From Antedon mediterranea (taxonomy: Eukaryota; Animalia; Echinodermata), in NCBI RefSeq assembly GCF_964355755.1, contig NC_092678.1, positions 14,410,371 to 14,474,370 of the forward strand: 64,000 nt of DNA. The letters run 5' to 3'. Positions 4,154-63,870 of this stretch are shown here, piece by piece. The translations under genes were made by a program, and so were the position numbers. The number at the start of each line of letters is the position of its first letter. Position 1 is the stretch's first letter. A model generated the notes under the pieces. The model was not told where the DNA came from, ran no database searches, and saw only the letters and a program-made list of their open reading frames with translations.

Positions 4154-4282
4154 GGTAACACAAATTCAGAAAGTTATTGTAACTGAAATTAAGCAGTAGA
4201 CATAAGCATAGTATTATAAATTATATTAATTAAAATAGTTTTTTATAGACAAATACAATCAATAAACATACAAAATCAAAGC

Positions 4283-16000: not shown

Positions 16001-16147
16001 TTGGTGTTCATCCAATAATATGATACCCCAACCCTCCAAATGCCATATCTTGGTTGTCAATTTTCTTAAGGACAAGTCGGATGATATTATATCGCCTTCT
16101 TTTAGTCTGAGTGATTCCATTTTACAAGTAGTTGATCACATGACGCT

Positions 16148-16447
16148 TTTCAAATTCAAATAAACATTTATTTCTTTCATTCATATTTGAGTAAAAAACA
16201 TTATAATTTCTGATATTTTATAAACAAATATTTTTTTTTTTTAGAGATATAATACAGTAAATCATAATGTATAAAAAGATGATTCAGTTATATACAAAAT
16301 GAAAGAGGCAAAAAAACCCAAGAAAGTATCGATCAATTGGAAAAAAAATCCAATTGAAACTTGTATGTTGGGAAGCCATGTAAGAAGATTATATACTTAA
16401 ATATATAAATGTAAACATATAACTACACAAACACATATAGATCAACA

Positions 16448-16487
<40 letters not shown>

Positions 16488-17537: not shown

Positions 17538-18269
17538 GTTCTTGGTGTAATCATTCAAAATGACCTGAAATGAGAACTTAACACTAATCATATTGTGTCT
17601 AGAGCTTCTAGACGTTTATTTTCCTTTTGCATTTTGAAGAAAGCAGGTATCTTAATTAATGATCTGTTGACTGTTTATATGGCGTATATAAGACCTATTT
17701 TAGAATATGCTGCCCCTGTTTGGCATGGCGCTATCACTAAGGACATGTCCAAGTCTATTGAAAAGGTACAAAAGAGAGCTTTGCGTATCATGCTAGGTAA
17801 CAACTATTTGTGCTATGATCATGCATTGTCTATTACTGGTTTACCTACTCTTGTTGAGAGAAGACACAAACTTGTGTTGTCTTTCTGGGAAGGCTTATTA
17901 AAATCCGAGCTGTTTAGAGAAATACTTCCCCCTCTTCATAAGCCAGCTCGGTCTCTCAGATTCAACCGCTTTCTAGAAGTACCTCATTGTAAAACCAGCA
18001 GACTTAGGTCGTCTCAAGTTCCCACTATGGTGGATATAATTAATATGCACCACTAGCTCTATTTTAGATATGTAATAAGTGAATGTTTTAAGGTTTTTTA
18101 TTCATCTATGTTTTTAATTTTATGGTACGATATCTAATTTTAATAAGATGTTTCTATTTTTATAGCAACTTTAACAAATTTTTAGGCATTTGTAATACAA
18201 TTCATTTCAGTCCTTGACTGCCGTTTTATATACCGAATAAAAAAATATATATATAATGTAATACAATAT

Positions 18270-26613: not shown

Positions 26614-26621
26614 ATGTCGGG
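26614..26621 (+). CDS. Roco exon 1 coding part (ATG TCG GG)
   Basis: GTGAGT donor at 26622; acceptor ttttcttcAG at 26550; in-frame upstream stop TGA at 26590 supports this ATG as the start; phase 2 matches the next exon. Confidence 0.65.
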
Positions 26622-29600
26622 GTGAGTTGTAAAGTTGAAGAACAATACTATACGAAAACGGCTACGAAAAACATCAATCATTGGTTGTTTTTTTTAAATA
26701 TTGATGTAACTTATTTTATATTTCATATTTGACCGTTACAGATTACAAGATGCTTTTAAGATGAATGACTTGCAACAAATTAAAGAAATATGTCAGAAAA
26801 CTCCAGATCTTTTGAAAAACAAAGATAAGGTAAAACAAAATATAGGCTTTCCATATTACTAATAAGAAAGTATAGTCATTCAATTAGTTCCAAGAAGACA
26901 ATACATTTATGTAAATTGTAAACTGTAATCATTATACCTATATTCAAATACAATGAATACTGTTTAATATCCGGGATCAATAACATATGCTTCAGTGACG
27001 AATGCTGCAAATTAAATAGAAATTAACTACCTGACAAACTACTTAAATCTGTCAAAGTATTTAAAAAGTTGTATAAAAATAATTTGCTCTTAACTTATCA
27101 ATGAGTGTTACAAATATGTTTACATTTACATTGTTTTTTTGCTTTTTTGGTTTTATCGCACTATCTTTGAGTTCATATGCCAACATGTTTAGCTAGTATT
27201 GTCTCGTCCTGTGCTTCAATTATGTTTGTATCATGTATTAATTATTTTGTTAAGGTGGCCAAATATTGTACGAGCTTTGCTCTTTTTTGGTCATCCTTCC
27301 ATTTTTGCTATATATTCATGACACTTGGTTATATTGGAAAATAAAAACTGAAACTGAAACTGAAACATCAGTACTTACTGTTATTGTTTGTCCTACATTA
27401 TGAGATCGGTGTACAGTTACTATAAAAGGTTGGACAAATAGTTAGACGGTCAGAACATTGTATACCTCCATGGTCAGAATGACAGTTTCGAAGTCAAGAG
27501 CCATATTTTGTATGTTTTGAAATAAAAAAACTTCAAAAGCATAATTGAGTTCATCTAAATCCAATCTAGTAAGACTTTTTCGAAATAATTATACAGATAA
27601 TTTATAACGGTGACTAGACTCGACAATAACAACAATGTATTCACTTTTTTCTCTTATCATTAAAGTTATAACAATTATTTACTTCAGGATTGTACAATAA
27701 TTGTTTATGCTTTTGTTTTTCATGATTTCTAAGATCAGCATGTTATTAAACGTAAAGCATAAATGTAACTGATTTTAGTAATATCATAACAGTGTTGAAC
27801 TTACAAAAATTGTCAATGTAACATGAATACAAAACATGTTTGCATTACAGCTGTAATCTATATTTATAAACTACATGGTTATGATTTCTTTCTAGTTTGG
27901 ATACACTCCTCTACATAAGTATTTACTTTGTGCCAACCCTACAACAGAAATAGTGGCTTGTCTCATACGGCATGGCGCACCAGAAACACCACGAACTACG
28001 GTAACATACAATTATAGTATGTCTATTATGTCATTATCGGTTCCAGCAAACATCTCTATTACATTTATGACGTCTCATTTATAATTATTATGAATTATGT
28101 AGAATTAGTTATTACAAATTCAAAAACATTTATTGAATAAAAAATTAATTTAATTAAAAACTATATTGTGTATACATGCCATGAACACATTTTGAAGTGC
28201 GTCTCGCCAATTATGACGTAATATAATCGATTGATTCACACATTTGTATTACAAATAAATAGTAATTCTTCACTTTATCAGTCTAGTTTGTTTAAGTTGG
28301 TTTAAATAATATAATAATTATTCCTTGAAATAATTTTATTTGGGTCCTATTTTATATAAAGGCGTACATTTATTTTTTTATCCAATCAAGTACGATAGAT
28401 AAGCACGAAATAAAAAAGTAAATACTACGTCGTTTTGCAAGCGTACCGGTTTTCAAGAACACTTTTGTTAGTTGCGTTGACGTTGATGCTATATATAACA
28501 AGCCAGATGTGTTGTAAATAAAGTACAAAGTGAATGTAGCTGATTTGTATTGTTTTGTACACTCAGAAGATTTTTGTCAAAACAATGTAGAATTTACAAC
28601 CATTATTAATGTGGCATGACCGAAATATATGTTTGCCTTACAGCTGGAATTTATATTTAAAAATTACTACATGATTATGATTTCTTTCTAGACTGGAGAC
28701 ACTCCACTACATACGTATTTATTCAATGCCAACCCTACAACAGGAATAGTGGCTTTTCTCATACGAAATGGCGTAGCAGTAACATCAAAAAATAAGGTAA
28801 TAATACAATAGTAGGTCTAATTATGCCAGTATTAATAAACATTATCGGTTTATCTGTCTAGATTTTTTTAGTTTTTTACAGAAGATTTTGTCAAAGCAAT
28901 GTAGAATTTACGACCACTATAATTGTGATTGTTTTACAGCTAGAATTGCTATTTATAAATATGATTTCTTTCTAGTATGGAGACACTACACTACATAGGT
29001 ATTTGCGATATTCTAACAGCAATAGTGACTTGTGTCACATAGTATGGCGCATCAGTAACATCACAACATGTAGTAATGTACATACAATCATAGTGGTATT
29101 TATGTCATTATTATGAAAACAGTATCTGTTCCAGCAAACATCTCTATTTCATTTATAATTTGTCATTTATAATTAATATTAATTATTTTGAATTATTTAT
29201 TTCGAATTTTAGAAACAGTTATTGAATGAAACAATAAATGAAGACATGCCATAACCGACAGGTGTTTTTAGAAACAATATTACATAACATAAAGTCAATT
29301 ATGACGTCATATAAATCGATTGTCATTCACACATTGTATTACAATTATAGTAGCACTTCAATATATCCGTCTAGTTTTTTAAGATGGTTTAAATAATATA
29401 ATAATTATCTTTGAAATAACTTTATTTGGGTCCTATTTTATATAAAGGCGTACATTTTCCTTTTTTTTATTCAATCAAGTACGATAGATACATACGAAAT
29501 AAAAAAAGTACTTACAATGACATTTTGCAAGCGTTCCGGTTTTCAAGTACAATGTTGTTAGTTGCGTTGAAGTTGGTCAGTACGGCCATGAATGTAGCTG

Positions 29601-32600
29601 ATTTTTATGTTTTGTACTTTCGGAAGATTTTGTCATAACAATGTAGAATTTACAATCATTATCAATGTGGCATGACCGAAAAATATGATTGTATACAGCT
29701 GGAATTGATATTTATAAACTGCATGCTTACGATTTCTTTCTAGAATGGAGACACTCCACTACATATGTATTTACGATGTGCCAACCCTACAACAGAAATA
29801 GTGGCTTATCTCATACAACACGGCGCATCAGTAACGTCACAAAATAAGGTAACATACAACATTATAGTAGGTTTATTATGCCAGTATTAATAAAACATTA
29901 TCGGTTCCAGCAAACTTCTCTATTCCATTTAAGACGTCTTATTTATATTTAATATGAATTATTTAGAATTAGTTATTGTAATTTCAAACACAGTTATTGA
30001 ATAAAACAATTCATTAAAAACTATTTTGTAGACGTATGCCATGAACGATATGTTTTTGTACAATGTATTATTCTATAAGTGTAGACGATGGTTCTCGAAA
30101 TAATAATGATTCGGGTAAAAAGGTTTTAGAAGGACGTTTTCCTTGTACGTTTTCTGTCGGTTACCGGTATTGAACATGCTTGACATTCGTTAAACTAAAC
30201 CTACTCTGTTTCACAGTGTCTTAGATGATTAAAAACATTTTAATAAAGTATAGTGTTTATTGTTTGGTAGGGCCCTTAAAATGAGAGGGGGCGAGGTGGA
30301 GTTCAATTGAGGGAGGTGCTTATTCGAATGATATGTTTAATTTTTTAGTCTTAATAAAATAAAATGGTAACATTTATAATCACATGGAATCCTCTACTAC
30401 AAATAGTATAACTGTGTAATTATAAATATAATACAATATTGTGTGTATTATAAATGTGGATGAGAGTTTATTAGATAGTTGGGTAGGGGGGGGGGGTTAT
30501 TATTCAAAGTGATGTTTTATTGGAGAGGCGTTTATTCAAATAAATACCATCCTAATAATTAATACATTATTTAACTTAAACAGCTTTTAAAACAATGCAA
30601 TCATAGTGGTATTTATGTCATTATTATGAAAACAGTATCTGTTCCAGCAAACATCTCTATTTCATTTATAATTTGTCATTTTAATTAATATTAATTATTT
30701 TGAATTATTTATTGCGGATTTTAGAAGCAGTTATTGAATGAAACAAAAATGAGACATGTCATAACTGAAATGTGTAGAAACAATATTACGTTACTTAATG
30801 TCAATTATGACATAATTATAATCGATTTTCATACACACTGTATTACAAATATAGTAGCACTTCGATATATCTGTCTAGTTTTTTAAGTTGCTTTAAATAA
30901 TATAGTAATGAACTCTTGAAATAATTTTATTTGGGTCCTATTTTATAGAAAGGCGTAACTTTTCTTTTTTGATTCAATCAAGTAAGTATTCCGCCAAGTA
31001 TTGCAAACGTACCGCATTCCAAGGACACTGTTATTGACGTTTGTCAGTACGGTATGCTATATGTAACAAGCCAGATGTTTTGTAGATAAAGTACAGAATG
31101 AATGTAGCTGATTTGTATTGTTATTTACATTCGGAAGATAATAATGTAGAATTTACAACCATTACTAATACGGCATGACCGAAAAATATGATTGCATTAC
31201 AGCTGGAATTTATATTTATAAACTACATGATTATGTTTTCTTTCTAGTATCGGGACACTCCACTACATAGATATATATTAAATGCCAACCCTACAATAGA
31301 AATAGTGGCTTGTCTCATACACCATGGCGCAGCAGTAACGTCACAAAATGAGGTAATGCACATACAATTATAATATGTTTCTTGTGCCAGTTTTAATAAA
31401 ATCTTATCGGTTCCAGCAAACATATTTATTCCATTTATAATTAATATAAATTATTTAGGATTATTTATAGCAAATTCAAAAACAGTTATTAAATAAAATG
31501 ATTAATTAATTAAAAACTATAATTTTTAGACATGCCATGAACGATATATGTTTGTAGAAACAATTATTTCATAGTATACTAAGTGCGTCTCTCAAATGAC
31601 ATCATATAATATAAAAATAAAACTATAATTTAATTCGTCATTTTTACGAATTATAGGTGTTCATTTTTATAATTTTATTGATAATAATATTTTTTAAACA
31701 TGCACGTATGTTAACATACAATTGGAAAATGTTGATGTATGCCATCCTATTATACGCTTATAGTGCTGTAATATAAAAAAAAAAAAAATACTTACTCCTA
31801 CGTTTTGCAAGTCTACCGGTTTTCAAGTAGACTGATTGTTAGTTGCGTTGACGTTGGTCAGTACGGCATGTTATATGTAACAAGCCAGATGTATTGTAAA
31901 TAAAGAACGAATGAATTTAGCTGATTTTAATTGTTTTTACACAAAAGAATTTACATTATTAACGTGAAATTGAGATATAATTATAAACATGACTATGATA
32001 TCTTTCTAGAATAGAGACACTCCACTACAATTGTATTTACGATGTGCCAACCTTAAAACAGAAATAGTGACGTGTCTCATACAGTATGGCACATCAGTGA
32101 CATCAAAAAATAAGGTAGTGCACATACAATTATACTAGGTATATTATTTCTATATCATTTATGACGTCTCATTTATAATCTACTATAATTAATGCCCGTC
32201 CATATTTTTGTATAATTATTGTAATATTGTTGTATTATGTTGGAGACCCCTTTGGAAAAAAGCTTCTGCTTTCCATGCTTATTTTATTGTCTAGTCTTGT
32301 ATTTTTATATTTAATGTTTCTCTTTTTATTTCATTTACATTATACTGTTTTATATATTTGTACTGTATTTGGAAAGCAATAAATATTACTTACTTACTTA
32401 CTTACTTCAATGGGTATGAGCCCCGCTATTTTTCAGCAAGGAAATCATTCAATATACAATGTATACCATGACCGGAAAACTTCCTTATTTGGGGAAAATC
32501 GTTGGACCTAAATTCGTTTTATTAACTAATCAATAACTAATTATCTAACGCAACTTAATTAGTAAACAGGGTTACATCAGGTGGTTAAAATCAGTACCGA

Positions 32601-35600
32601 ACGTATAAACCAAATTTACCATCGAGTTAAAATTCTAGAAGTAACGCGCGATTTTCCGAATTGTGCCCTTAATGTAAATGTGTATATTACACCTATAACG
32701 TACGTATGAACTGCGCCAAAAACCTACCTTATCCACTTTATTTTGTAACATATTACAATTGATTGAATTATTTAGAATTACTTGCTGCAATAATTATTTA
32801 AAGTAATTATACAAGATCCTACATTTCTTGTGAGATTTGTATATTGTGCAAATTAATTATTGTTCAACCATGTTTTATGTGGACCTGTCATTATAAAATA
32901 GTTATTTACGCCCGTATTCTTAAACCGGACTTTAGTCGTAGACTTTAAAAATGGTGTCATTTTAATTCATAAACCGAACTTCAACTAAATCGTAACTAAA
33001 TCAGGCCAACTTCGACTAAATCGAGACGGTTTTTGATTTTTTTTTTGTCCTGGAAGGGGCAGGCTAAATGGTCGACTAAATGGTTTTTAAACGATGTTTA
33101 TGAAAAACGTAACAGTCATTGAGTTGTTGGCCAGATATTGAAGAATGAAATATCTATTTTGATATTAGCTTAATTAAATATACATTGGTATAAGTTTTAA
33201 TAATGAAAATCATCTTTATTTACAACTGTATACAATTTACATTATTTTCTTTGCGCAAGTCCGACTTGAACTACGTCACGCCATAGCGACAATGGGAGAT
33301 GTGGAAATTCACCACGCGATGGAATGTTTAGGGTGGGTGGGCCTAGCGCCTTCTTGTCACGCTATGAAGTGCGTAGTTCGCGATCATACTTTGTGGGAGG
33401 CCTAGAAAATATGAAAGTTACTGTACGCCATGGTTCCTAAATATATTTTGAAGATTTTGTTTGTTGTTAATCAAAAGTACTTCACTGTTAAATTAATACT
33501 GATCTTGAATTTTAAGTTATAGCTCGAACTACGATTTTTTCAGTCGAACTTTGAACTACGACTAAAGTCCGGTTTATGAATATTATTATACGGGCGTTAG
33601 AATCATGACTGAAAGTAAGAGAATGCACAGACAATTGATATACTTTGGTCTACGTTCACAACATATGCACCAGCAAAACCTTTTATTTCAATTTCTTTGT
33701 GTATTATTATCATTACCTAACTATTATTATTTATTAATTTCTGCAATACATATGTATAAACTCCATGATTCTAATTTCTTTATAGGACGGAAACACCCCA
33801 CTGCATGAATACATGCGTTCAAATGGACCTAATTTAGAAGCAATAGACTATTTCATGAAGCAAGGTGCATCAGTAAGAGCACTAAATAAGGTAATATATG
33901 GCAAGAACAATAGTTATTCTAGGACAAAAATCTGAAAAGATGCTTAGAAATCAAGTTAGGGGCAGTGGAATGTTAGAGGCTGTCAACATAGCCTTCTGAT
34001 CACTCTAAGCTCTGTTGACACTTAATATTTTGTCTCGTCTTGAAATGGCGGCCATTTTTCAAAATGGCTTTCATTTTTATATACAATGTGCATAAAATCG
34101 GATCTAAATAAGGTAGATGCACGATCTTGGTGTCTAAACACATGTACTTCAGACACGGAATCCATTAGGCCTTGTTGACACTTCTTTTTGGCTTTATATT
34201 GAAATGGCGGCCATTTTTCAAAATGGCGACCAATTATATAAAAATGTGCTTAAAATCTAAATATGGTAGATCTACCATATTTAGATTTTAGGCACATTTT
34301 TTTTTCGTGAATATATTCACGATCTTGGTGTCGATACACATGTACTGTAATAGGTTTTTTTTAAACTACTCGTATCAAAAAACCTTAAATCAAATATTTT
34401 CCTCTTGTACAAAAATGGAGTTTTTTGGACAAGTTGTTTTCAAACAGTTTCAGTTTACTTGTTACTTTAAGACTGCTCGCCGGCTTTTTGAAAATTCACT
34501 ATCTTTTAAGACTAGCAGGTCTAAAAACAATACTAAAAATTGGTCCAAAATTGGGACCGTGGTCCGGAATGCCCCAAAATTTAATGGAGTGGTACTTGAC
34601 CACAAATCTATCTAACCCTAATTTTGGTAAAGACCTTGCAATAGCTTTTTGAGTAATCCTGCAAACAAACAGACAAACAAACAAATGAAAGCACTCAGAA
34701 ACTGATTACTTGGCAAATATATATCAATTCAATTCAATTCAATTCAAAATTCTTTAATCATCCCACACGGGGCAATTCAACTAAAAAGGTCTGGATTAAA
34801 ATGATCTTACAAAATATACAAAATATCACAATACACAGAACAACAACAACAAAAAAAGTCAAGTCAATGTTCAAGAATTTAAGAGTCGAATAGCCACTGG
34901 CAAAAACGAATTCCTTTTCCGGTTTGTTCTACATGCCGGGCATCGAAAGCGACGCCCATGAGGCATGAGCTCGAAATCACTGAACAAGGCATGGTTAATA
35001 TTTTTTAGAATAGCTCTACTTTTTCTACTGATAGGGAGCATGTTGAATGATACAATTTTTGGTTTTAGGTATTATCTTTACATGGTTCAAATCATGGGGT
35101 TTATAATTTATTAGGTACGCGATAGACTACATATATCTCCTTAGCGGAGGTAAATAATATTAGTTTATGTAATAGGAGAGCCTAAAGTCAAGATGAAACA
35201 TCTGTGAAGTTACATGCAAATGGATTCAACAAAAGCTGAGGCTTTAAAATCCTAGTCATGGCTCTATACAAACTAAACCTTTACCAATTTTGTGAAACAA
35301 ATTCCAGATTGACGATTTCATGAACAGATAAATTAGGCAACCATTTTGAAAAATGTTAGCTACTGTGCATTTAACTTAAAAAATTAATTAATCAAACTAT
35401 TTAAAGTTATTTATTATATATTTAATGGATTTCTTGCCTGAAAAAAACATTTTGTTTAGACACCAAGATCATTTATCTAGCCTAATTAGTTACACTTTTA
35501 AGCACTTTTTAGAAAAATTATGCAGCAAACCCTTTCACTGCGGAAAATATATTTAAGAAAAATATATGATATTTTAAGAAATTGCAAAATACTAATTGAG

Positions 35601-53600: not shown

Positions 53601-56600
53601 TTCAATTTCTTTTTCTTATACTTATTCTGTTATTGCCAAATATAAAATACATGAAGAACATGAAATACACAAAAACAAAAGAACCAACTGAGTGAGCTGG
53701 CAGGGGACACAACAGCGAACCTAATCACTGTGACTTAAAGCCTGTGTTCCCCACTCACCCAGTTTTACAAGCAATGAAAATGCCATCATAATATATAATA
53801 TACCAAAATTCCAAAGTTAAGTTTAAATCATATAAATAAAAAAAAAATATATGAATGATATAATATGAAAGTACATTAAATTATATACATATGCCTAATC
53901 ATTATCGGATAACAAATTTATTTTAAGTTTAGCAAGGAATGTAGGGAAATAATCCAATAGCAGGGAATCTTTCACTTCATCATGAATGTCTTCCCACAGT
54001 CGCGGGAAGACATGGATAACTGAGCGATGCAAACAGTTAGTCCGAGCATACAACTACTTGAAACTTAAGGTTTCTTGACGTCGAGTATTGACGCACACAT
54101 TTTCGCGAATACTTTTACAATCAATATAACCTATTAGTGTTTCACATACAAATGATGTTAAAAGATAGCTTCTTCGGCTCGTTAGCCGGGGCCAATTGAA
54201 TTGTTTTAATCTAACATCATACTCCATATCTCCTCTTCTCTGTTTCAATGCTAGCCGTGTGACTCTACGTTGAACAGATTCGATCTTATCAATCAATTTT
54301 ACTGTCTAGGGAAGCCATGTGGGAATCGCATATTCGAGTATGGGAATGATAAGAACTCGGTATAATGCAAATACAGCTGCTGACGAGTTGCCCCCATTAA
54401 TACTCGCAATATAACCAATCATCCAATTTGCCCTTGCAGTAACATTTTGTAGTATTTATCATGACCTAACTATACTTATTTGCTGCAATAACCTGTATGT
54501 ATAAACTTCATGATTATAATTTCTTTATAGGACGGAAACACCCCGCTGCATGAATACATGCGTTCAAGTGAACCTACCTTAGAAGTAGTAGTCTATCTCA
54601 CGAAACAAGGTGCATCAGTAACAGCACTGAATAAGGTAATATATGGCTACAGTTAATTTATTTGAACTAGATGGTACGCTCGCTTCGCTCGCGTACCTTC
54701 TAGGTTGTGTCCACAGATGGTTCTCGAATACACAGTATTTTCAGCGTAAAAAATGTACGCACCACAGGACTATAGTACATTGTCGTTTACAGAAACAAAT
54801 AAATAGACACCATGATTGATGTAAAATTAGCACCCTGGGAATTAGGCCTTGTTTTAAAAATGAGTTTTTATTTGAACTCATTTAAACAAACCCACTTTGT
54901 ATTTTGTATATAACAATAGAGTTGAGGGATGGGGAAGAGAATGGGAAGAACAATTTTAAATATATTCGCTATCCACTGATTAACGAAATATTGTTTTAAA
55001 GGTTTCATAGGCCTATCAAAAATATACCACTAAACACAGTAAAGCATTTACGATTTATAATACTTTTTTCAAACTGTCCCTGTTATAGTCGACTGAAATA
55101 GTAAAGTACATGTAACGATACACCAGTACGACGTTTATATTTTTTATAATTTTTAATTAATACAAACGTTGAGAAGCAACTGTCAGTAATCTACCCACAG
55201 TCACAGTAATAAATGTTCTTTGTATATTTTGTTTATATATCTAACAGTAACCACATTCACAGTAAGACAATTTCGATTCAAATGGTGACCAAAAATGGTT
55301 AATACGTATTTACAATATTATCAAAGTACTGCAATACTATATATAAGTTTATTCTCCAAGGGCCATACATTTACCTACTTGTGTTAAACCAAGGGCTCAT
55401 AAATGTACATACAAACTGTGGGAGAGATTTGAATGTTCCATTCATCGCAAATCAATACATTTGTATAAACGTATATTAAATCTATTAAAATAGTATTTTT
55501 TTAAAGAAAATCGACATTATGATACTGTACTCGAGCTGTTGAACCGGTTTTCAGCTATTAAAAACAATTATCGTAGGAGGAGATATGAAAATGCGCAGTA
55601 TCCTCGTATTATTGTGTGCAGGTATTTTTCATGAGGACATCCATAAGACAGTGTATACCACGATCGGAAAATTCGTTGAACCTAAATTCGTTTTAATTGT
55701 CAATAACTAATTGTCTAACTAAATTTAATTAGTAAACAAGGTTACATCAGGTGGTTAAAATCAGTACCAAAATTCTAACCAACTTTATATACCATCGAGT
55801 AAACATTCTAGAAATAACGCGTGCTTTACCGAATTTTGCCCTTACGTAATTTATATATAAACTAGATGTACGCTCGCTTCGCTCGCGTACCATCTAGGTC
55901 GTGCCCACAGATGGTTCTCGAATACACAGTAATGTCAGTGTAAAAAAACTGGCGATTTCAAATGTACGTACCACACGACTATAAATACATTGTCGTTTTC
56001 AGAAACGAATAAATATACACGATGATTAATGTAGTCAAGTAAAATTAGCACTCTGTGAATTAGGCCTACTTCCGAAGCAGAAAATTGTCTTAAAAATGAG
56101 TCCACATTTTTTTCTTTGAAATATTTAAACAAACCCAATTTGTGTTTTGTATATAACATTAGAGTTGAGAGATGGTGAAGAGGATGAGAAAAACAATTTT
56201 GTAATATTTTCTTTATCCACTCAGTAACGAAATATTGTTTTAAATGTCTTATAGGCCTATCAATAATATAACACTACAGAATAACATTTACGATTTAAAA
56301 CTTTCCTAAAACTGTCCCTGTTATAGTCAATTGAAATAGTAAAGTACATGTAACGATACACCACTACGACGTTTATATTTTGTATAATTATTAATTAATA
56401 CAAACGTCAAAAAGCAACTGTAAGTAATACAGTTTTTATTTGTATATGTATATTTATACGTGTTTATATATCCAGCAGTAGAGCCTACCCACAGTCACAA
56501 TAATAAATGTTCTTTGTATATTTTGTTTATATATCTAATAGTAACCATATTCACAGTAAGAACATTTTGATTCAAATGGCGACCAAAAATGGTTAATACG

Positions 56601-59600
56601 TATTAACAATATTATTATCAAAGTATTGCAATACTATATATCAGTTGTAAGTTTATTCTCAAAGGGCTCATAAATTTACCTACTTGTGTTAAACCAAGGG
56701 CTCGTGCATGCATTTACCTACAAACTGGAAGTCTGAGAGATTGGAATGTTCCATTCATCGCAAATCAATACATCTGTATAAACGTATATCAAATCTATAA
56801 AAATAATATTTTTTTAAGAAAATCGGCCTGTCTTCAACATTATGATGCAGTACTCGAGCTGTTCAACCGATTTTCAGCCATTAAAAACAATTATCGTAGG
56901 AGGAGATAGGAAAATGCGATGCATCCTCGTATTATTGTATGTGGGTATTTTTCAAGATGGACATCCATTAGACAGTGTATACCACGATCGGAAAACACAA
57001 ATATTTGTGGCCAATCGTTGAACCTAAATCCGTTTTAATATTCAATAACTAATTATCGAACTAAATTTAATTAGTAAACAGGGTTACATCAGGTGGTTAA
57101 AATCAATATCGAAAGTACGAACCAGCTTTATATACCATCGAGTAAACATTCTAGAAATAACGCGCGATTTAAAGAATTTTTCCCTTACGTAAATTTATAT
57201 ATAGATACCTCTTTTAACGTACGCATGATCTGCACCGCAAATATATGTTTTCCACTTTATTTTGTATCATATAATTGATTGTGTTATTTAGGCTTACTTT
57301 CTGCAATAATTATTTAGTAGTAATTAAACAAGATCCTACAGTTATTGTGATTGGTATAATAATTATGAAAGTATTAAGTTGACTATGTTTTATGTGGACA
57401 TGCCATTATAAAAGGGTGAATTTAGAATCATGACAGGAATGCAATGAATGAATGAAAGCAATGTTCACATTAACCTGTATGTATAAACTACACGATTATG
57501 ATTTCTTTTATCAGTAAAATTTCAAAATAAGGGAATGCACAGACAATTCATATACGTTCACAACATATATCCAACACCAAAACCTTTTATTTCAATTTCT
57601 TTATGTATTATTTATGATACCTAACAATAATTATTTTCTGCAATAACACGTATGTGTAAACTCTATGATTATACTTTCTTTATAGGACGGAAAAACATCA
57701 CTGCATAAATAATTAGACATTTGAATGATAGTTGTTTAGCGATGTGTTTTCTCAAAAATGTGTAATCAAAATTCTATCAAATTGACTACGTCGTCCATGC
57801 ACCATACATATACACTATACTAATACGAAAATTAAATTTCATTAAATGTTACTTCAAACTTAATTGCAAATACAGTAACAAACAAAACCATTTTTTAACA
57901 TTAATTATAAATACTATAACTTTAATGCGTGAATTAGTTACCTTTGAAGAGACGTAGTTTATTATTGTCTGAGTTATTACCAGATTGAGGGCGCAGTTAT
58001 TTTGTATGGAAGGCAGGCTGCACTCAATTTTAAGTTTATCCCGAGATATTTAGCTTTTAAAACGTATTTACAGATTGTTTACTATGTTTAAATTTAATTT
58101 ATTAATTAAATAGTATATAGTGTAAGGTAATGATAGTTAATTATTATCGCACTTATCATATCTTTATTACTTTTTACTAAGGCAAAAAAGGCGTAAAATG
58201 AGTTTCGTCACGTGATTGATGTAAATACGTCACCAACGGAGATACAAATTGGAGGGATGTTCATTCTATATTAAATTTACGGGGAAATTATGTTTATTTA
58301 TCTCTTTTTTTACCCCATTACAAAATGTAATGTTTTGGTGTGATGTCACTTACAACAAATGGCATCCAAATAATCAATAACTGGAAGAACACGACGCGGA
58401 ATTGTCAACATTATTGTATCTTCCATAACACTCAACATCTCCTTAACACAATACTAATAGATTCTAATAATATTCATGGTATGTGGTACTGATATTTTTT
58501 TACATTTAATAATAAATTTCGTGATAATAATGTTTTTCTCTATAGGACGGAAACACACCGCTGCATGAATACATGTGTTCAAATAAACCTACCTTAGAAG
58601 CAGTAAACTATCTCAGGAAGCAAGGTGCATCAATAACAGCACTAAATAAGGTAATATAGGTCTATAAATAATTTATATCATTACACCTAACGTACGTATG
58701 ATCTTCGCCGCAAACATATCTTATCCACTTTATTTCATACCATATTATATTTGATTGAGTTATTTAGAATTAGTTGCTGCAATAATGAATTAGTAGAAAT
58801 TAAACAAGATCCTACAGTTATAGTGAGATTAGTGTATTGAGAAATGAAATTATTAATTTTTTAAATAAATTTTATGTGGACATGTCATTATAAATTGGTT
58901 GAATTTAGAATCATGACAGAAAGCAATGTTAGCAAATTAGTTTGGTCACGTGATTGATGTAAATGCGTCACCCGCTGAACTACAAATTAGAAGAATGGTC
59001 ATTGTATATTAAATTTACGGCGAAATTATGTTTATTTATCTGTTTTTTACCCCATATTTAAAAATGTAATGTTTTGGTGTGATGTAACTTACAACATTCA
59101 AAAGCAAATACATGTTTTTTGGCTATACTAAAAATAGCTTCACACTTGACTACATCATCTTCGGAATCACTCCAGAATCATCAAATGGAATCAAAAGCAT
59201 ATAACACATCTGACGTGTATGATTAATGAAGTGGGCTGAAATTGTTTAGAACGCGGATGACCTAGATATCTAATATACTTTTATGTTTATAGGAAGGAAA
59301 AACAGCAGTATCCGTTTTAGAAGAAAATACGAAGATAGAAAAAACAAAACAAATCATGATTTTAGAGCATTTTGACAGTAAGTAAAAAATATTATATTAA
59401 AATTGAAGTTGATGTAACTTTAAATAGAAAAGGTTCTCCATATTAGCAATACACATTTACATAAAACCATGAATTCGAAAACCGAAATGATACATGTATG
59501 TTATGCGTATTTTTTAAAATTTATAATTAGAACTGCTAGTTCCTCCAGAAATATTTGCCATGGGTAAAGAGGCTATTAAGATATATAAAGATGAATTGAA

Positions 59601-62600
59601 AGATGGTAAAATTGCAGTTGTAAATTCAAGATGTATGTTTCTTGGGAAGGAAGGTGCTGGTAAGACAAGCTGCGTAAAGTCCATGCTTAGAGAGAGGTAA
59701 CAAAATACAATTGATACAAATATGTGTTAACATAAGCTAATGGTATTAATCAATTATTTCAACGTAAATGTATACGTGTATTATGTTGACTAATGCTTTC
59801 CTCTCTTGAATTTGTATAATATAAAGCTTTTTAAAATTGATTTGTATCAACTAGTTTGATAATTTCAATTTGTTAAACTTGCATGTTGGATGTAATGGAT
59901 TAAAAGTATTTAATAAATTATGTATCAACTTCAACGTACATGTTTACAATAGATTCAACCCCAAAGAACAATCGACGGATGGTATAGTTACAGCCACCGT
60001 GTTTAAAGCAACTGGAGAGAGTAAATGGAAGAAGATTAAAGAGGAAAACGGTAAAGACAATGTGATGAACCGAACTGTAAATGTTTCTGTTGCTTCCTTT
60101 ATTATCCTTATTTATATTTCTTTAACATTGATAAACTCTGAGTCAGAAATAGACACCGCGTTGTGTGAATGCTTAAATGATTGACATCACACAGTAATAG
60201 GCATGATACATGTTAACATTAATTCCGTCTTTCTGATAAACATTAAACAACATCTTTGTATACGATCTTCATTTTTTACCAATTGGTTTATTTATACAGA
60301 TTCTGAGCTTACCAAGAAAATGCGTGAAAATGCATTAGCAGAAAAAGTTGACAAAAAGTTAAAACAGGGTATGTACAGCAAAAATAATGGAAGCTTGTTA
60401 ACATTTGAATGTATTTACTTTTCCTTTATCAATCATGATAATCGAAACTGTAGATTAATGATTGGATATTAAGGAAGAAAACCTAGATGATGGTATAACA
60501 AGGCCAACAGCCATTAAGTCGCGTGCTACAATGCATAGTGATACCGGACCGACAGACAAACAGACCGACAGACAGACAGACCGACAGACAGACGGACCGA
60601 CCGACATAGTGAATTATACTGACCGAAATTACTGAACATGTTTGAAAATGTTGAAATGTTTAAAAACATTTATATTTTTTTAATTTACGCTTGAGTAGCC
60701 TGTCACATTTGACGTGCTCGTATAACGTAATTTCGAGTTGAAAAGTAATTCAAGAAAACAGAAATCGGGCAAAAAGTGTGCGCAACAACATTTAACGCGC
60801 AGTGCGCGCGCAAAAATCTGCGCACTCATGGCAATTTTGTAAACGCTTAAAATTGCCTGAAACGTACTCTTATTTCATCGAAAATAAATTTTGAAAATGT
60901 TAAGCGCGCGTACGCATGCGTTACATGCGCTACGCACGTCATTGTATTGCCATATGATGATTTATGCCCTGAAATTTATGAGTACCAAATTTTATTTAAT
61001 TGTGATTCATGGTTGTTAAAATATGATTACAAACGTGATTTCATTAAATCGTGCGTAGACCGCGTAATTTTTTATGGCGCACCGTGAAAACATAACCACA
61101 TCGATTCCTGGCCATAAGGAATATTCTGTGAAAAATTTACTTAGCTAGATTAAACTGATATCAAGATAAGGTCATAAAGCGATAAAACGCATAGTGATAC
61201 CGGACCGACAGACAGACAGACAGACAGACCGACAGACAGACAGACAGACCGACCGACCGACTTAGTGAACTATAGAGTCGCTTCCACGCGACTAAAAATG
61301 GTGAACTTTAAAGTTCTTTTTAGGATCACCATAAGATAACAAAAAATCACATGATTAATATCAATTTAAAAACATGACATTAAAAAAAGACAAATGAAAA
61401 GTACTGGCAATAGTAAATCATAGGATATTATTAAAAAACAAGGCCAACAGCCATTAAGTCGCGTGCTACAATGCATAGTGATACCGGACCGACAGACAAA
61501 CAGACCGACAGACAGACAGACCGACAGACAGACGGACCGACCGACATAGTGAACTATACTGACCGAAATTACTGAACATGTTTAAAAATGTTGAAATGTT
61601 TCAAAACATTTATATTTTTTTAATTTACACGTGCGTAGCCTGTCACTTTTGACGTGCTCGTATAACGTAATTTCGAGTTGAAAAGTAAGTCAAGAAAACA
61701 GAAATCGGGCAAAAAGAGTGCGCAATAACATTTAACGCGCAGTGCGCGCGCAAAAATCTGCGCACTCATGCCAATTTTGTAAACGCTTAAAATTGCCTGA
61801 AACGTAGGCTACTCTTATTTCATCGAAAATAAATTTTGAAAATTTTAGGCGCGCGTACGCATGCGTTACATGCGCTACGCACGTAATTGTATTGCCATAT
61901 GATGATTTATGCCCTGAAATTTATGAGTACCAAATTTTATTTAATTGTGATTCATGGTTGTTAAGATATGATTACAAACGTGATTTCGTTAAATCATGCG
62001 TAGACCGCGTAATTTGTTATTGCGCACCGTGAAATCATAACCACATCGATTCCTGGCCATAAGGAATATTCTGTGAAAAATTGATTTAGCTAGATTAAAC
62101 TGATATCAAGATAAGGTCATAAAGCGATAAAACGCATAGTGATACCGGACCGACAGACAGACAGACAGACCGACAGACAGACCGACAGACAGACCGACAG
62201 ACAGACAGACAGACAGACCGACCGACCGACATAGTGAACTATAGAGTCGCTTCCACGCGACTAAAAACTTAACAATTATAAAGAGGGTAAAATAGATTCA
62301 CACTGATGATGGGTAATGCTTCTCGAAACATGTATATAGGTGTCTACAACCATCGGTAACATCAGATTGAAACCTTCTGAAACGAGTTGTTTTATTTTCA
62401 TGTTAATACGTCTAACTTCAAGTCAAAATGTTATTTTCGTGAACTTTAAAAATTATTCTATTGATTTGAAATATGATTCCTCCCACAAAATAAAAATTTC
62501 TTATAATTAACATTTAAAGAAAACAAGCATGCCTGAAAACCTGGACAGCGATCAAATGTGTTTTGTTTCCATGTGTTTTTTTTTATCCTACAATAGATAG

Positions 62601-63870
62601 CAATGAAAACCGGAGCCTTTGGAACAAATTCGAAGATTTTATAAGAAGTAAAATAGGAAGTGATGATTTAGAGAGTATTTCAAATGAAATAACTAGCATA
62701 TGGGACTACGCTGGTCAACTGGATTACTATATAACGCATAGGGTATGCTTATCAATATGTTAATTATTAATAAAAGTAGTATTATTAAAGTATGTAAATA
62801 GGATGTACATTGCATTTGACATTATCCCTACAATTAATAGGCAGGCGTGATATCGATATTACCGTTACCGAAATTGTATATCCATACAAACCTATTTTCT
62901 GCCGTAACGTAACCATCCCATTAATATGATTAATTCTTCATTATTATACTATATCGTGGCCAATACAAGCTTAATGACATACTCCGGATAAATTTCCTTT
63001 TCACACCTGATTCATAACACGGGAATGACACTGGTTGCGTGTATTTACACTGCAAAATACCAACCCATGTAAATGTCCTAGATCAATCGAAATATCGCCC
63101 TATCACGCATGAAGAGACACCATAGTAACGGTCTGCTGATAATACCTCCCACAATTTTGTTTTATGGCAATACACACACACATTAAGTCTACTCGGGAAG
63201 AATAATATCTTGAAATAAAAATGAATAACAAATAACAATAAGTTTTAATTATTAAATAAGCGAATAAACAAAATCAATCTTATCCTAATTTTATTTAAAT
63301 TAAATACTATAGTGGGCGAAGATAGTAAACAAACGGGTAAAAATACGCTGAGCGTTTTACACCGCAAACACGGGTTCATCCCGGAAGCGTCCCGGGTTGA
63401 CTTGAGAATGGAGAATGCTCAAAATCATTAAATGCTACATTAATTGTCTGTGTTTTGTTCAGTTTTTCCTTACAAATACAGTGTCGTACTGCGTTGTGTT
63501 TAGTGCGTTGGATAAATTAGACGAACTAGCTAAAAGACGAGATCCAGCATTGGTAAGTTTAATAAGTTAGATTATGCTATTATATTAAAATGTAATATTA
63601 ATAGTTTAATATAAGGTACGTAGGCTATATATAATACACTATAATATCCTTTTAAATCCATTTTACATTTAAAATTAGGGTCCATTAGGAATGACTAATT
63701 TGGACATAATTCTGTTCTGGGTAAGGTCAGTATATGAACATACTGTGGTACAACATGCTTCAGGAAACACCATTTCAATTGATGGCAAAGTGATAAAATC
63801 GCCTCCCATCAGTTTGGTTGCTACTCATATAGACAAATTGCAAGGGAGAACATCAGAAAAGCTGAGAGAG
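26614..63870 (+). CDS. Ankyrin-repeat Roco-family GTPase (ANK array-Roc, COR expected beyond window); multi-exon, 3' incomplete
   Basis: 25 phase-compatible GT-AG coding exons give ~876 aa in the window if all intact ANK exons are included. Roc G1 GKEGAGKTS, G2 STDGI, G3 WDYAGQ, G4 THID and the pre-Roc VPPEIFAMGKEAIKIY motif are present. Confidence 0.88.
26742..26829 (+). CDS. Roco exon 2, N-terminal ankyrin cap (GLQDAFKMNDLQQIKEICQKTPDLLKNKDK)
   Basis: cAG acceptor, GTaaaa donor, phase 2-0; ends ..KDK like an ANK linker. Confidence 0.75.
27896..28000 (+). CDS. ANK exon A1 (FGYTPLHKYLLCANPTTEIVACLIRHGAPETPRTT)
   Basis: 105 nt, phase 0-0, AG/GT, TPLH motif. Confidence 0.85.
28692..28796 (+). 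CDS. ANK exon A2 (TGDTPLHTYLFNANPTTGIVAFLIRNGVAVTSKNK)
   Basis: 105 nt, phase 0-0, AG/GT. Confidence 0.85.
28976..29072 (+). pseudogene. ANK pseudo-exon A3 (8-nt deletion, frameshifting)
   Basis: 97 nt between AG and GT; begins YGDTTLHRYLRYSN then loses frame relative to its siblings. Confidence 0.8.
29744..29848 (+). CDS. ANK exon A4 (NGDTPLHMYLRCANPTTEIVAYLIQHGASVTSQNK)
   Basis: 105 nt, phase 0-0, AG/GT. Confidence 0.85.
31248..31352 (+). CDS. ANK exon A5 (YRDTPLHRYILNANPTIEIVACLIHHGAAVTSQNE)
   Basis: 105 nt, phase 0-0, AG/GT. Confidence 0.85.
32010..32114 (+). CDS. ANK exon A6 (NRDTPLQLYLRCANLKTEIVTCLIQYGTSVTSKNK)
   Basis: 105 nt, phase 0-0, AG/GTagtg (weaker donor). Confidence 0.75.
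32420..32687 (-). mobile_element. Helitron H1 5'-end fragment
   Basis: Matches 19985-20245 (cctaaattcgtttt..agtaaacagggttacatcaggtggttaaaatcagtaccgaa). Confidence 0.75.
32909..33596. mobile_element. PIF/Harbinger-like MITE
   Basis: TIR cgcccgtatt..aaaccggactttagtcgtag / ctacgactaaagtccggttt..tacgggcg; TTA TSD on both sides; the empty site gaatttagaatc is seen in sibling intron copies. Confidence 0.8.
33786..33890 (+). CDS. ANK exon B1 (DGNTPLHEYMRSNGPNLEAIDYFMKQGASVRALNK)
   Basis: 105 nt, phase 0-0, AG/GT. Confidence 0.8.
34725..35030 (-). mobile_element. LINE 3' fragment with (AATTG)n tail
   Basis: caattcaattcaattc tail; the minus frame reads HALFSDFELMPHGRRFRCP..RKRNSFLP, an L2/Rex-like terminus. 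Confidence 0.6.
36156..37443. mobile_element. Tc1/mariner-like non-autonomous element
   Basis: About 140-bp TIRs (ccgggtagcgatattttttacgctcaacgaaactgccagctagccagaatactg...) flanked by TA on both sides. Confidence 0.75.
37829..39032 (-). mobile_element. 5'-truncated L1/Tx1-type LINE with poly(A) tail and 14-bp TSD
   Basis: zf-RVT-like region (FNYKLLNRILATN..CGRCGEVQDEEHMFFTC); T-run at left end; TSD tatctaccttattt at 37815-37828 and 39033-39046. Confidence 0.85.
39456..39560 (+). CDS. ANK exon B2 (DGNTPLHEYMRSNEPTLEVIDYFMKQCASVTVLNK)
   Basis: 105 nt, phase 0-0, AG/GT. Confidence 0.8.
41491..41627. repeat. 24-bp tandem repeat, ~5.5 copies (ctgattgtataaaagttaaaaatt)
   Basis: Direct observation. 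Confidence 0.8.
41950..43930 (-). mobile_element. Degraded non-LTR retrotransposon nested in the Penelope pair
   Basis: Minus ORFs 43124-43360 (IGIQQG..FKIYIN..YLDDIVL) and 42070-42318 resemble the 18270-20660 family. Confidence 0.65.
44814..45430. mobile_element. MITE (PIF/Harbinger-like TIR taccc(c)tttcacaccaaaa) with internal ggtgtgaaa/ccggag repeats
   Basis: Inverted termini; it interrupts the plus Penelope copy at a site that is empty in the minus copy. Confidence 0.75.
46049..46153 (+). CDS. Unique ANK exon C (NRNKPINIYLERDDVKLEILFCLITNGVSPTLTKE)
   Basis: 105 nt, phase 0-0, cAG/GTaatc; divergent ANK repeat. Confidence 0.8.
46399..46509 (+). CDS. Unique ANK exon D (EGSNALHVHLSGRYVKPTLEIVTYLIKLGVTPTLQNK)
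   Basis: 111 nt, phase 0-0, tAG/GTaatg. Confidence 0.85.
46927..47028 (+). pseudogene. ANK pseudo-exon B3 (acceptor AG lost, in-frame TAA)
   Basis: ttatat|GAC instead of tatag|GAC; ..NEHT* stop; 102 nt. Confidence 0.85.
47203..48237 (+). mobile_element. Non-autonomous Helitron, family H2
   Basis: 5'-TCtatatata ... gggtgcgcgagcaaacc-ttCTAG-3', inserted between A and T of the conserved intron motif cttca|tgattataa; no TSD. Confidence 0.85.
48258..48362 (+). CDS. ANK exon B4 (NGNTPLHEYMRSNEPTLEVVDYLTKQGASVKALNK)
   Basis: 105 nt, phase 0-0, AG/GT. Confidence 0.8.
48567..48671 (+). CDS. ANK exon B5 (DGSTPLHEYMRSNEPTLEVIDYITKQGASVTALNK)
   Basis: 105 nt, phase 0-0, aAG/GT. Confidence 0.75.
48721..49915 (+). 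mobile_element. Non-autonomous Helitron H1 (plus orientation)
   Basis: TC...CTAG termini inserted exactly at gcacagacaa|ttgatataattcgg, the empty site in sibling introns. Confidence 0.88.
50063..50167 (+). CDS. ANK exon B6 (DGNTLLHEYMRSIESTLEVVDYLVKQGASVTALNK)
   Basis: 105 nt, phase 0-0, aAG/GT. Confidence 0.7.
50364..50468 (+). CDS. ANK exon B7 (DGNTPLHEYMRSNEPTLEVLDYFMNQGASVTALNK)
   Basis: 105 nt, phase 0-0, aAG/GT; visible in ORF 50226-50483. Confidence 0.75.
50612..52758. mobile_element. Non-autonomous DNA transposon with CAC/GTG termini and 4-bp TSD (Chapaev/CMC-like)
   Basis: Ends cacattca..gacaaaaagt / actttttgtc..tgagtgtg; TSD agca at 50608-50611 and 52759-52762; the empty site tatattgagcaatg occurs in a sibling intron. 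Confidence 0.7.
53082..53186 (+). CDS. ANK exon B8 (DGNTPMHEYMRSNEPTLGIVNYLTKQGASVTSLNK)
   Basis: 105 nt, phase 0-0, AG/GT. Confidence 0.8.
53612..54450 (-). mobile_element. CR1/L2-type LINE 3' fragment
   Basis: Minus frame LYRVLIIPILEYAIPTW..IDKIESVQRRVTRL; it interrupts the conserved B-intron motif. Confidence 0.8.
54531..54635 (+). CDS. ANK exon B9 (DGNTPLHEYMRSSEPTLEVVVYLTKQGASVTALNK)
   Basis: 105 nt, phase 0-0, AG/GT. Confidence 0.8.
54667..57205 (-). mobile_element. Head-to-tail tandem pair of Helitron H1 (54667-55860 and 55862-57205)
   Basis: Two hairpin-CTAG ends (54667, 55862), intact TC end at 57205, A|T insertion site. Confidence 0.88.
57686..57712 (+). pseudogene. Truncated ANK pseudo-exon B10 (DGKTSLHK*)
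   Basis: Conserved upstream intron and tatAG acceptor retained; TAA after 8 codons, then unrelated sequence. Confidence 0.8.
58546..58650 (+). CDS. ANK exon B11 (DGNTPLHEYMCSNKPTLEAVNYLRKQGASITALNK)
   Basis: 105 nt, phase 0-0, AG/GT. Confidence 0.8.
59293..59377 (+). CDS. C-terminal ANK cap exon (EGKTAVSVLEENTKIEKTKQIMILEHFD)
   Basis: tAG/GTaagt, phase 0-1. Confidence 0.85.
59531..59696 (+). CDS. Roc exon with P-loop (LLVPPEIFAMGKEAIKIYKDELKDGKIAVVNSRCMFLGKEGAGKTSCVKSMLRER)
   Basis: Phase 1-2; GxxxxGKT/S Walker A preceded by the Roco-typical PPEI..G...I..Y helix. Confidence 0.92.
59953..60050 (+). CDS. Roc exon with switch I (FNPKEQSTDGIV..KWKK)
   Basis: Phase 2-1; STxGI motif. Confidence 0.9.
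60300..60368 (+). CDS. Roc insertion exon (DSELTKKMRENALAEKVDKKLKQ)
   Basis: cAG/GTatgt, phase 1-1. Confidence 0.8.
60497..61298. mobile_element. Helentron-associated (HINE/DINE-1-like) non-autonomous element, copy 1
   Basis: aacaaggcc start, two (GACA/GACC)n microsatellites, terminal hairpin agtcgc-ttccac-gcgact plus A-run; near-identical to copy 2. Confidence 0.7.
61437..62267. mobile_element. Helentron-associated (HINE/DINE-1-like) element, copy 2
   Basis: Same structure and sequence as 60497-61298, with different flanks about 140 bp away. Confidence 0.7.
62597..62742 (+). CDS. Roc exon with G3 (..ITSIWDYAGQLDYYITHR)
   Basis: Phase 1-0; WDxAGQ..YY.TH Roco signature. Confidence 0.92.
63463..63552 (+). 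CDS. Roc exon (FFLTNTVSYCVVFSALDKLDELAKRRDPAL)
   Basis: cAG/GTaagt, phase 0-0; completes the THxFFL motif. Confidence 0.9.
63679..63870 (+). CDS. Roc exon with G4 (GPLGMTNLDIILFWVRSV..SPPISLVATHIDKL)
   Basis: Phase 0-0; FW..S and PPxxLVxTHxD Roco motifs. Confidence 0.92.

What the first reader, a model, noticed from the sequence alone, without database searches (positions are those of the whole stretch)
26614..63870. Roco GTPase whose ankyrin domain is a modular array of interchangeable one-repeat exon cassettes
Seen: 19 ANK cassettes (16 intact, 3 dead) over ~31 kb between an N-cap exon and the Roc exons. Every intact one is phase 0-0 and encodes one repeat, so any subset can be spliced, deleted or duplicated without frameshift. 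Families A (6) and B (11) were amplified with their flanking intron DNA. Known: Roco proteins carry N-terminal repeat sensors (ANK, LRR), and exon-per-repeat shuffling has been described for LRR-Roco genes of the brown alga Ectocarpus as a candidate immune diversification mechanism. Inference: this is an ankyrin-based analogue in an animal, a variable intracellular receptor diversified by exon birth-and-death and/or combinatorial splicing.
Basis: partly seen in the sequence, partly recalled or inferred. Interest (0 to 1): 0.9.

Follow-up and report, generated by a model that had tools for sequence, protein, structure and literature searches.

The report
Feather-star Roco with ankyrin exon cassettes
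A feather-star signalling gene builds its binding domain from 16 intact and 3 broken one-repeat exons that were copied with their intron flanks, and one group of them changes fastest on its predicted binding face, so it is likely an intracellular sensor diversified by exon gain and loss, though an immune role and mix-and-match splicing are untested.

Summary
Observation confirmed: 19 ankyrin cassettes (16 intact, 3 dead; A 6, B 11, two singletons) lie between one N-cap and one C-cap exon, all phase 0-0 with GT-AG, followed by an open Roc frame. The gene is from the crinoid Antedon mediterranea; RefSeq models only 4 cassettes. It belongs to a crinoid ANK-Roc-COR-DED family; COR lies beyond the window and was seen only in paralogs. 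Birth-and-death is supported: shared flanks, dead copies, a displaced B block, gene-specific repeat types in paralogs. Family A keeps its core (pN 0.018) and diversifies on the predicted binding face (pN 0.38 vs pS 0.17; at most 1 of 1500 neutral runs); family B does the opposite (face pN 0.049), so B varies length, not specificity. Splicing combinations were not shown here; a paralog has RefSeq isoforms differing by exactly one repeat. Immune function is inferred. It works like brown-algal LRR-ROCO exon shuffling, with ankyrins and a death-fold effector. The scan noted a similar mussel gene before (e1-9532795, unchecked).

The parts
26614..26621 (+). first coding exon (ATG), phase-2 donor
   Evidence: sequence; start codon choice is inferred
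26742..26829 (+). N-cap exon of the ankyrin domain, phase 2-0
   Evidence: only hit of a paralog-built N-cap profile, E 2.8e-10
27896..28000 (+). A cassette, intact
28692..28796 (+). A cassette, intact
28976..29072 (+). A cassette, dead (8-nt deletion, stop)
29744..29848 (+). A cassette, intact
   Evidence: Pfam Ank 32.6 bits
31248..31352 (+). A cassette, intact
32010..32114 (+). A cassette, intact
32427..33785 (.). displaced block: Helitron-like 5' end plus B-type flank, homologous to 56946-57685, interrupted by a further insertion
33786..33890 (+). B cassette, intact, upstream of C1/C2
39249..39301 (+). deleted cassette remnant
   Evidence: nhmmer E 0.0022
39456..39560 (+). B cassette, intact, sister of 33786 (UFBoot 82)
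46049..46153 (+). divergent singleton repeat C1
   Evidence: 71% identical to a P0015 repeat; no Pfam hit at E 0.01
46399..46509 (+). divergent singleton repeat C2 (111 nt)
   Evidence: 92% identical to a P0015 repeat; no Pfam hit at E 0.01
46927..47028 (+). B cassette, dead (acceptor lost, stop)
48258..48362 (+). B cassette, intact
48567..48671 (+). B cassette, intact
48720..49908 (+). non-autonomous Helitron-like element inserted in a B spacer
   Evidence: A|TC start, hairpin plus CTAG|T end; very high contig depth
50063..50167 (+). B cassette, intact (TPLH proline changed)
50364..50468 (+). B cassette, intact; first exon of RefSeq model XP_071960530.1
52855..52921 (+). internally deleted cassette remnant in B spacer
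53082..53186 (+). B cassette, intact
53476..53540 (+). internally deleted cassette remnant (3' end slightly more A-like)
54531..54635 (+). B cassette, intact
54654..57205 (-). two tandem Helitron-like copies in a B flank
57475..57542 (+). internally deleted cassette remnant
57686..57711 (+). B cassette, truncated
   Evidence: nhmmer E 2.1e-7
58546..58650 (+). B cassette, intact
59293..59377 (+). C-cap exon, phase 0-1
   Evidence: only hit of a paralog-built C-cap profile, E 7.3e-7
59531..59696 (+). Roc exon with P-loop (G1)
   Evidence: a contig of run X9 begins to match exactly at this acceptor
59953..60050 (+). Roc exon (G2)
60300..60368 (+). Roc insertion exon
62597..62742 (+). Roc exon (G3)
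63463..63552 (+). Roc exon, not in the RefSeq model
63679..63870 (+). Roc exon (G4); gene runs off the window

Best explanation
This is the 5' part of a crinoid ankyrin-Roc gene whose ankyrin domain grew and shrank by copying and losing single-repeat phase 0-0 exons with their intron flanks, and it likely encodes an intracellular sensor-switch protein of the family's ANK-Roc-COR-DED type. Shown: cassette anatomy, open frame, duplication history, selection pattern. Inferred: the ankyrin stack binds a ligand, Roc-COR would switch on binding, and a C-terminal tandem death-effector domain, as in paralogs, would recruit death or immune signalling partners. Diversity arises mainly in the germline: family A varies the binding face (specificity), family B repeats one binding face (length or avidity). 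In-frame skipping is possible and probably occurs, but is secondary.
For: 16 of 16 intact cassettes phase 0-0, frame open to the window end. One N-cap and one C-cap. In the fold of P0001 each exon gives one helix pair and the junctions fall in the loops between pairs; the best PDB matches are mostly designed ankyrin proteins, rmsd about 2 A. Intact fraction exceeds neutral decay at flank rates: P 3e-4 (A, 5 of 6) and 2e-7 (B, 9 of 11; 1e-5 with four remnants counted dead). A core pN 0.018, A face pN 0.38, pS 0.17; neutral star-tree runs reach the face value in 0, 1 and 0 of 1500 at three rates. Paralogs P0008 and P0012 vary at the same positions 1, 8, 11, 12 by inspection of the column table. 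36 of 56 repeats have their nearest neighbour in the same gene (shuffled mean 7.0, max 19). P0015 shares C1, C2, B order but has 7 B repeats with an exact two-repeat block duplication. Paralogs carry COR and end in DED-like, Death, HEPN or ZU5 domains, the repeat-GTPase-variable effector layout described for AP-GTPase conflict systems (PMC8195603, passages).
Against: COR and DED of this gene are outside the window, and its RefSeq model stops by reading into the intron after 62742, so the 3' half could be broken. DED scores in paralogs are below Pfam's cut-off (24.9-31.6 vs 35.9 bits). Whole-exon dN/dS does not differ from 1 in either family (A 1.18, 0.67-2.32; B 0.57, 0.27-1.32). Without indels the intactness test is not significant (P 0.16, 0.12). 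B core positions are not below neutral (pN 0.159; P 0.58-0.90). The face test has five sequences, a star tree and one rate, and the face positions are recalled DARPin positions fixed after I had seen the column table (position 8 added afterwards). No ligand, challenge or knock-down data. In a second sample of the same organism label a contig spans the 48362-48567 intron as in the window (X5 record 9).
Confidence: 0.6

Rival explanations
1. The array is mainly a somatic splicing library: cells skip different subsets of cassettes to make many receptor isoforms from one locus.
For: All cassettes are symmetric. RefSeq isoforms X1 and X2 of a paralog (XP_071957837.1, XP_071957838.1) differ by exactly one 36-residue repeat at the cassette register. 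Brown-algal ROCOs have such variants (PMC11378527 section 11).
Against: Nine of 16 intact cassettes (B) share one binding face, so most combinations would change length only. No shared 12-base complement between cap-exon introns and cassette flanks beyond 1 hit in 64 comparisons, a weak test for Dscam-type pairing. The isoform pair is an annotation; its RNA support was not seen.
Confidence: 0.2
2. Relaxed turnover: symmetric exons are duplicated by chance in a transposon-rich, multi-copy family and tolerated; many, mostly B, are little-used passengers with no adaptive role.
For: Dead copies and four remnants; Helitron-like and LINE insertions throughout the array; B core not below neutral, one B lost the TPLH proline and one the helix-2 glycine; RefSeq uses only 4 cassettes.
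Against: A core strongly conserved and A face above neutral; B face below neutral (P 0.007-0.04); intact fraction above neutral when flank indel rates are used.
Confidence: 0.13
3. The cassettes do not form one working gene: the A block is an orphan or separate unit, and the expressed gene is a short B-Roc form or a decaying pseudogene.
For: RefSeq model begins at 50364 and ends in an intron; long insertion-filled gaps at 33890-46049; several paralog models are fragments.
Against: Single N-cap and C-cap in the window; continuous frame with canonical sites through 63870; purifying selection on the A core; an X9 contig matches the P-loop exon from its acceptor with 1 difference in 108.
Confidence: 0.07

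Closest known systems
Brown-algal LRR-ROCO genes with type I LRR exons (Zambounis 2012, PMC3341825: abstract, section 15, passages; Teng 2024, PMC11378527: abstract, section 11, section 13 part 1)
   Same: One repeat per symmetric exon in front of Roc; dead intronic copies; repeat number differs between close paralogs; faster change on the binding face; proposed immune sensor without functional proof.
   Different: Ankyrin (105 nt, phase 0) instead of LRR (72 nt, phase 2); an animal; paralogs end in DED-like domains; no inverted cassettes on the non-coding strand; one cassette family is conserved on its binding face; no evidence for somatic recombination.
Crinoid ANK-Roc-COR proteins annotated as uncharacterized (Antedon XP_071961256.1, XP_071964198.1, XP_071964214.1; Anneissia LOC117123205 and others)
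   Same: Same Roc signature, N-cap and C-cap; P0015 shares the C1, C2, B order.
   Different: Models are bare predictions; three Anneissia models examined show degenerate, non-homogenised ankyrin repeats; paralog exon structure was not seen.
AP-GTPase (Roc)-COR conflict systems and DAPK (PMC8195603, passages)
   Same: Fast-evolving N-terminal repeats, Roc-COR switch, variable C-terminal effector.
   Different: Described with LRR sensors in prokaryotes, without introns; this gene has ankyrin exons and no kinase in the window.
Expanded basal-animal and mollusc Rocos: Trichoplax (PMC4104024, passages), Aplysia TIR-ROCO (PMC9334734, passages)
   Same: Lineage-specific Roc-COR proteins joined to repeats and death-fold or TIR domains.
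   Different: No ankyrin exon-cassette array in the passages read.
Ordinary repeat expansion by exon duplication (PMC1553488, PMC5100051, passages; phase-0 repeat exons of vertebrate ankyrins, recalled)
   Same: Repeat-bordering symmetric exons and tolerance of ankyrin repeat gain or loss are common.
   Different: Recent copies with alignable flanks, dead copies, a displaced block and binding-face excess go beyond the ordinary layout.

Membership tests
Roco proteins | Roc GTPase domain with G1-G4 motifs | tested here: met
   GKEGAGKT, STDG, WDYAGQ, ATHID in open exons (motif labels recalled); Pfam Roc 33.5 bits vs cut-off 27 on P0001 (17); single exons alone gave no Pfam hit
Roco proteins | COR domain directly after Roc in this gene | not testable with these tools
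   Window ends inside Roc; no genome held; met in paralogs, e.g. P0015 COR-A 56.1 bits vs 35.3 (60)
Roco proteins | GTP binding and nucleotide-dependent switching | not testable with these tools
   needs biochemistry; Roc part of the fold had pLDDT under 50 (43)
Ankyrin repeats | Profile match and helix-pair stack, one per cassette | tested here: met
   9 of 11 cassettes scanned hit Pfam Ank at E 0.01, 5 of 11 at or above cut-off; C1 and C2 missed; fold pLDDT about 90 over the repeats, DARPin matches
Brown-algal exon-shuffled ROCO | LRR repeats | tested here: not met
   repeats are ankyrin
Brown-algal exon-shuffled ROCO | One repeat per symmetric exon | tested here: met
   16 of 16 phase 0-0 (32)
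Brown-algal exon-shuffled ROCO | Inactivated repeat exons in introns | tested here: met
   3 dead cassettes, 4 remnants
Brown-algal exon-shuffled ROCO | Repeat exons on the non-coding strand | tested here: not met
   no minus-strand hit better than E 0.57 (7)
Brown-algal exon-shuffled ROCO | Repeat number and order differ between close paralogs | tested here: met
   9 intact B here vs 7 in model P0015 with its own block duplication; models may be partial
Brown-algal exon-shuffled ROCO | Diversifying selection on the binding face | tested here: inconclusive
   met for A, reversed for B; no codon site model run
Brown-algal exon-shuffled ROCO | Alternative splicing of repeat exons | tested here: inconclusive
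   one-repeat isoform pair in a paralog annotation; none seen for this locus
Dscam-type mutually exclusive arrays (recalled) | Docking-selector complementarity and one-of-many choice | tested here: inconclusive
   no shared complementary 12-mers, crude test; a one-repeat product would not fit an ankyrin stack, and models chain several cassettes
Immune receptors | Binds a microbial or damage ligand and signals | not testable with these tools
   no functional data

The most novel reading that the evidence does not exclude
Feather stars run a natural DARPin-like library: a multi-gene family of cytosolic ANK-Roc-COR-DED death-signalling receptors whose binding surface is rebuilt from one-repeat exons by germline duplication, displacement and loss and recombined again by cassette skipping, giving individual- and cell-level receptor diversity in an invertebrate deuterostome.
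Probability: 0.25. Interest if true: 0.85.

Novelty: new variant of a known kind. Interest (0 to 1): 0.6.

Why it matters
If right, the exon-cassette route to variable Roco sensors, so far described with LRRs in brown algae, arose again with ankyrin repeats in an animal and is wired to death-effector domains. That gives a concrete, testable candidate for intracellular receptor diversification in echinoderms (cassette counts by long reads, allele surveys, challenge experiments) and a natural parallel to designed ankyrin libraries. The contrast between a face-variable family (A) and a face-constant family (B) within one gene separates specificity from length or avidity. If wrong, it is an unusually clear record of exon birth and death in a badly annotated gene.

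Tried and rejected
No genome is held for this window, so the 3' half, paralog exon structures and alleles were not seen. Run search with 58480-60420: no RNA holder listed on record. Four of nine listed runs were laid, on 48010-60420 only; the N-cap, A block, first two B and C1/C2 were never laid. All four are contigs; the output was dominated by a high-copy element, 15 joint rows were shown and 292 hidden, and none shown joins two exons. Two X6 joints (48694-53524, 53225-59019) fall in repeated spacers at multi-copy depth and were rejected as evidence of cassette loss; an X5 GT..AG joint (50864-51475) touches no cassette. Bins without X9 cover, one holding cassette 53082, are no evidence. Helitron 3' transduction of the displaced B block was rejected: the block carries the element's 5' end. 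A second gene start inside the array was not found. Two false repeat rows were dropped before the tree count (P0002_19, P0015_277), and three Anneissia repeats were left out of the neighbour count; the repeat finder missed some, e.g. the second P0003 repeat (39). A cassette-profile search found no RefSeq model holding the A cassettes among 5949 candidates; weak. Paper searches listed nothing on crinoid ankyrin-Roco genes; the library is partial and no supplements were read. The Roc half of the fold was low confidence.
Full report
Observation. Scans of all six frames and both DNA strands found 19 ankyrin cassettes on the + strand between 27896 and 58650, exactly as reported: family A (5 intact, 1 dead), family B (9 intact, 2 dead) and two divergent singletons, C1 and C2. 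The 16 intact ones have AG and GT ends and are phase 0-0; 15 are 105 nt and one is 111 nt. Four further remnants, in which most of an exon is deleted, sit in B spacers. With a short ATG exon, one N-cap exon, one C-cap exon and six Roc exons, the frame is open to the window end. Profiles built from paralogs find only one N-cap (E 2.8e-10) and one C-cap (E 7.3e-7) in the window, which favours one gene.

Identity. The P-loop exon matches XP_071960530.1 of the crinoid Antedon mediterranea at 100%. That model holds only the last four B cassettes and ends by reading into an intron. All 14 hits of that search were Antedon models, on at least five contigs of 22-39 Mb. A Roc-COR search gave 21 proteins among 5545 candidates: 10 Antedon, 11 Anneissia japonica, no other taxa (word-limited, lengths 787-2505). 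Fuller paralogs read ANK-Roc-COR-linker-DED-like; other relatives carry Death, HEPN or ZU5 domains. The exon at 8304-8839 matches the C-terminal DED-like region of these proteins at about 53-62%, so a family member likely ends upstream on the same strand. COR of the gene itself lies outside the window and was not seen.

Structure. A fold of P0001 on a 16-row alignment gave pLDDT about 90 over the repeats; each exon contributes one helix pair and junctions at residues 26/27, 61/62, 96/97 and 131/132 fall in the connecting loops. The best PDB matches are mostly designed ankyrin proteins at rmsd about 2 A. A cassette is thus one structural repeat.

Birth and death. A and B copies share flanks; exon identity averages 0.81 in A, 0.89 in B and 0.58 between them; B is a clade at 100% support. 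B copies lie on both sides of C1/C2. The block before 33786 carries the same Helitron-end/flank junction as the block before the truncated 57686, so a B block was copied to a non-adjacent place or duplicated with later deletion; 33786 and 39456 are sisters (82%). Across paralogs 36 of 56 repeats have their nearest neighbour in the same gene against 7.0 on shuffled labels (max 19 of 1000). Against a purely local origin, 6 of 9 intact B repeats and both C repeats are nearest to P0015, a model on a contig of the same length as P0001's; B predates that split or is exchanged. P0015 has its own exact two-repeat duplication. Paralog exon structures are inferred, not seen, and their models may be partial.

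Selection. Whole-exon dN/dS is 1.18 (0.67-2.32) in A and 0.57 (0.27-1.32) in B, uninformative alone. Split by position, A has pN 0.018 at ten core codons and 0.38 at six predicted binding-face codons (0.41 with position 8), against pS 0.17 and flank p 0.13. Neutral star-tree runs reached the face value in 0, 1 and 0 of 1500 at rates 0.133, 0.171 and 0.20, and fell to the core value in at most 3 of 1500. B is reversed: face pN 0.049, below neutral (P 0.007-0.04), core not below neutral. The face numbering is recalled from DARPin design; passages read confirm only that randomised positions lie on the concave binding face (PMC8229355, PMC8683736). I fixed the set after seeing the column table, and there are only five A sequences. 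Intactness exceeds neutral decay with flank indel rates (P 3e-4, 2e-7) but not without indels (0.16, 0.12).

Expression and splicing. In one search (4 of 9 listed runs, 48010-60420 only, all contigs) a 199-letter contig of X9, organism label B, matches from its letter 92 starting exactly at the acceptor 59531, 1 difference in 108; the first 91 letters were not displayed. This fits a spliced transcript of a close relative, but the run's kind is not on record. A contig of X5 spans the 48362-48567 intron as in the window. RefSeq isoforms X1/X2 of another paralog differ by exactly one 36-residue repeat at the cassette register, the only sign of in-frame skipping, and it is an annotation. Combinatorial splicing at this locus and variation between individuals remain open.

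Mechanism. Most likely a cytosolic sensor-switch: ankyrin stack binds, Roc-COR switches, tandem DED recruits (all inferred from architecture and from the repeat-GTPase-effector layout in PMC8195603, passages). Symmetric exons let intronic recombination add, move or delete repeats without frameshift (shown as history). A-type repeats likely tune specificity and B-type repeats length or avidity. Confidence 0.6; rivals are a splicing library (0.2), relaxed turnover (0.13) and a broken or split gene (0.07).

Comparison. It works like the brown-algal LRR-ROCO genes (PMC3341825 abstract, section 15, passages; PMC11378527 abstract, sections 11 and 13 part 1) but is not a member: ankyrin not LRR, no inverted copies, DED-type effector in paralogs. 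Repeat growth by exon duplication is itself ordinary (PMC1553488, PMC5100051, passages). Expanded animal Rocos with death-fold or TIR partners are known (PMC4104024, PMC9334734, passages). Nine searches listed no paper on crinoid ankyrin-Roco genes; the library is partial and supplements were not read. The scan earlier noted a similar mussel gene and a choanoflagellate ankyrin-cassette gene (unchecked AI notes); look-ups by place, sequence and crinoid words found nothing.

Verdict. Real, well supported as exon birth-and-death with family-specific selection, unproven as a variable immune receptor. New variant of a known kind; interest 0.6.

Noticed in passing
window 8304-8839 +: Single exon encoding a tandem DED-like region with stop, 53-62% identical to the C-terminus of Antedon ANK-Roc-COR-DED paralogs; likely the last exon of an upstream family member; no other family exon found in 1-26600.
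   Followed up: partly
window 18926-20249, 32427-32677, 48720-49908, 54654-57205: Copies of a roughly 1.2-1.3 kb non-autonomous Helitron-like element (A|TC start, hairpin plus CTAG|T end), very high copy in all laid runs.
   Followed up: partly
window 60497-61298 and 61437-62267: Tandem 830-bp repeats at 94% identity with GACA microsatellites inside a Roc intron; resembles a Helentron-type element (recalled).
   Followed up: no
P0036 (XP_071943401.1): Antedon model with 13 TPLH motifs in related repeats, a proline-rich linker and a weakly DED-like end but no Roc hit: the same repeat type on a GTPase-less protein.
   Followed up: partly
P0003 (XP_071947615.1): Paralog with two Roc-COR units in tandem and a predicted hydrophobic C-terminus.
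   Followed up: no
window 3599-7547, 11814-12233, 14392-18056, 38205-39031: Decayed LINE-type reverse transcriptase and endonuclease frames by inspection of the ORF list; similar sequence forms the false N-terminus of models P0015 and P0018.
   Followed up: no
window 32908-33600 and 36154-37445: Insertions with terminal inverted repeats (the second pair 94% over 156 nt) inside the array.
   Followed up: no
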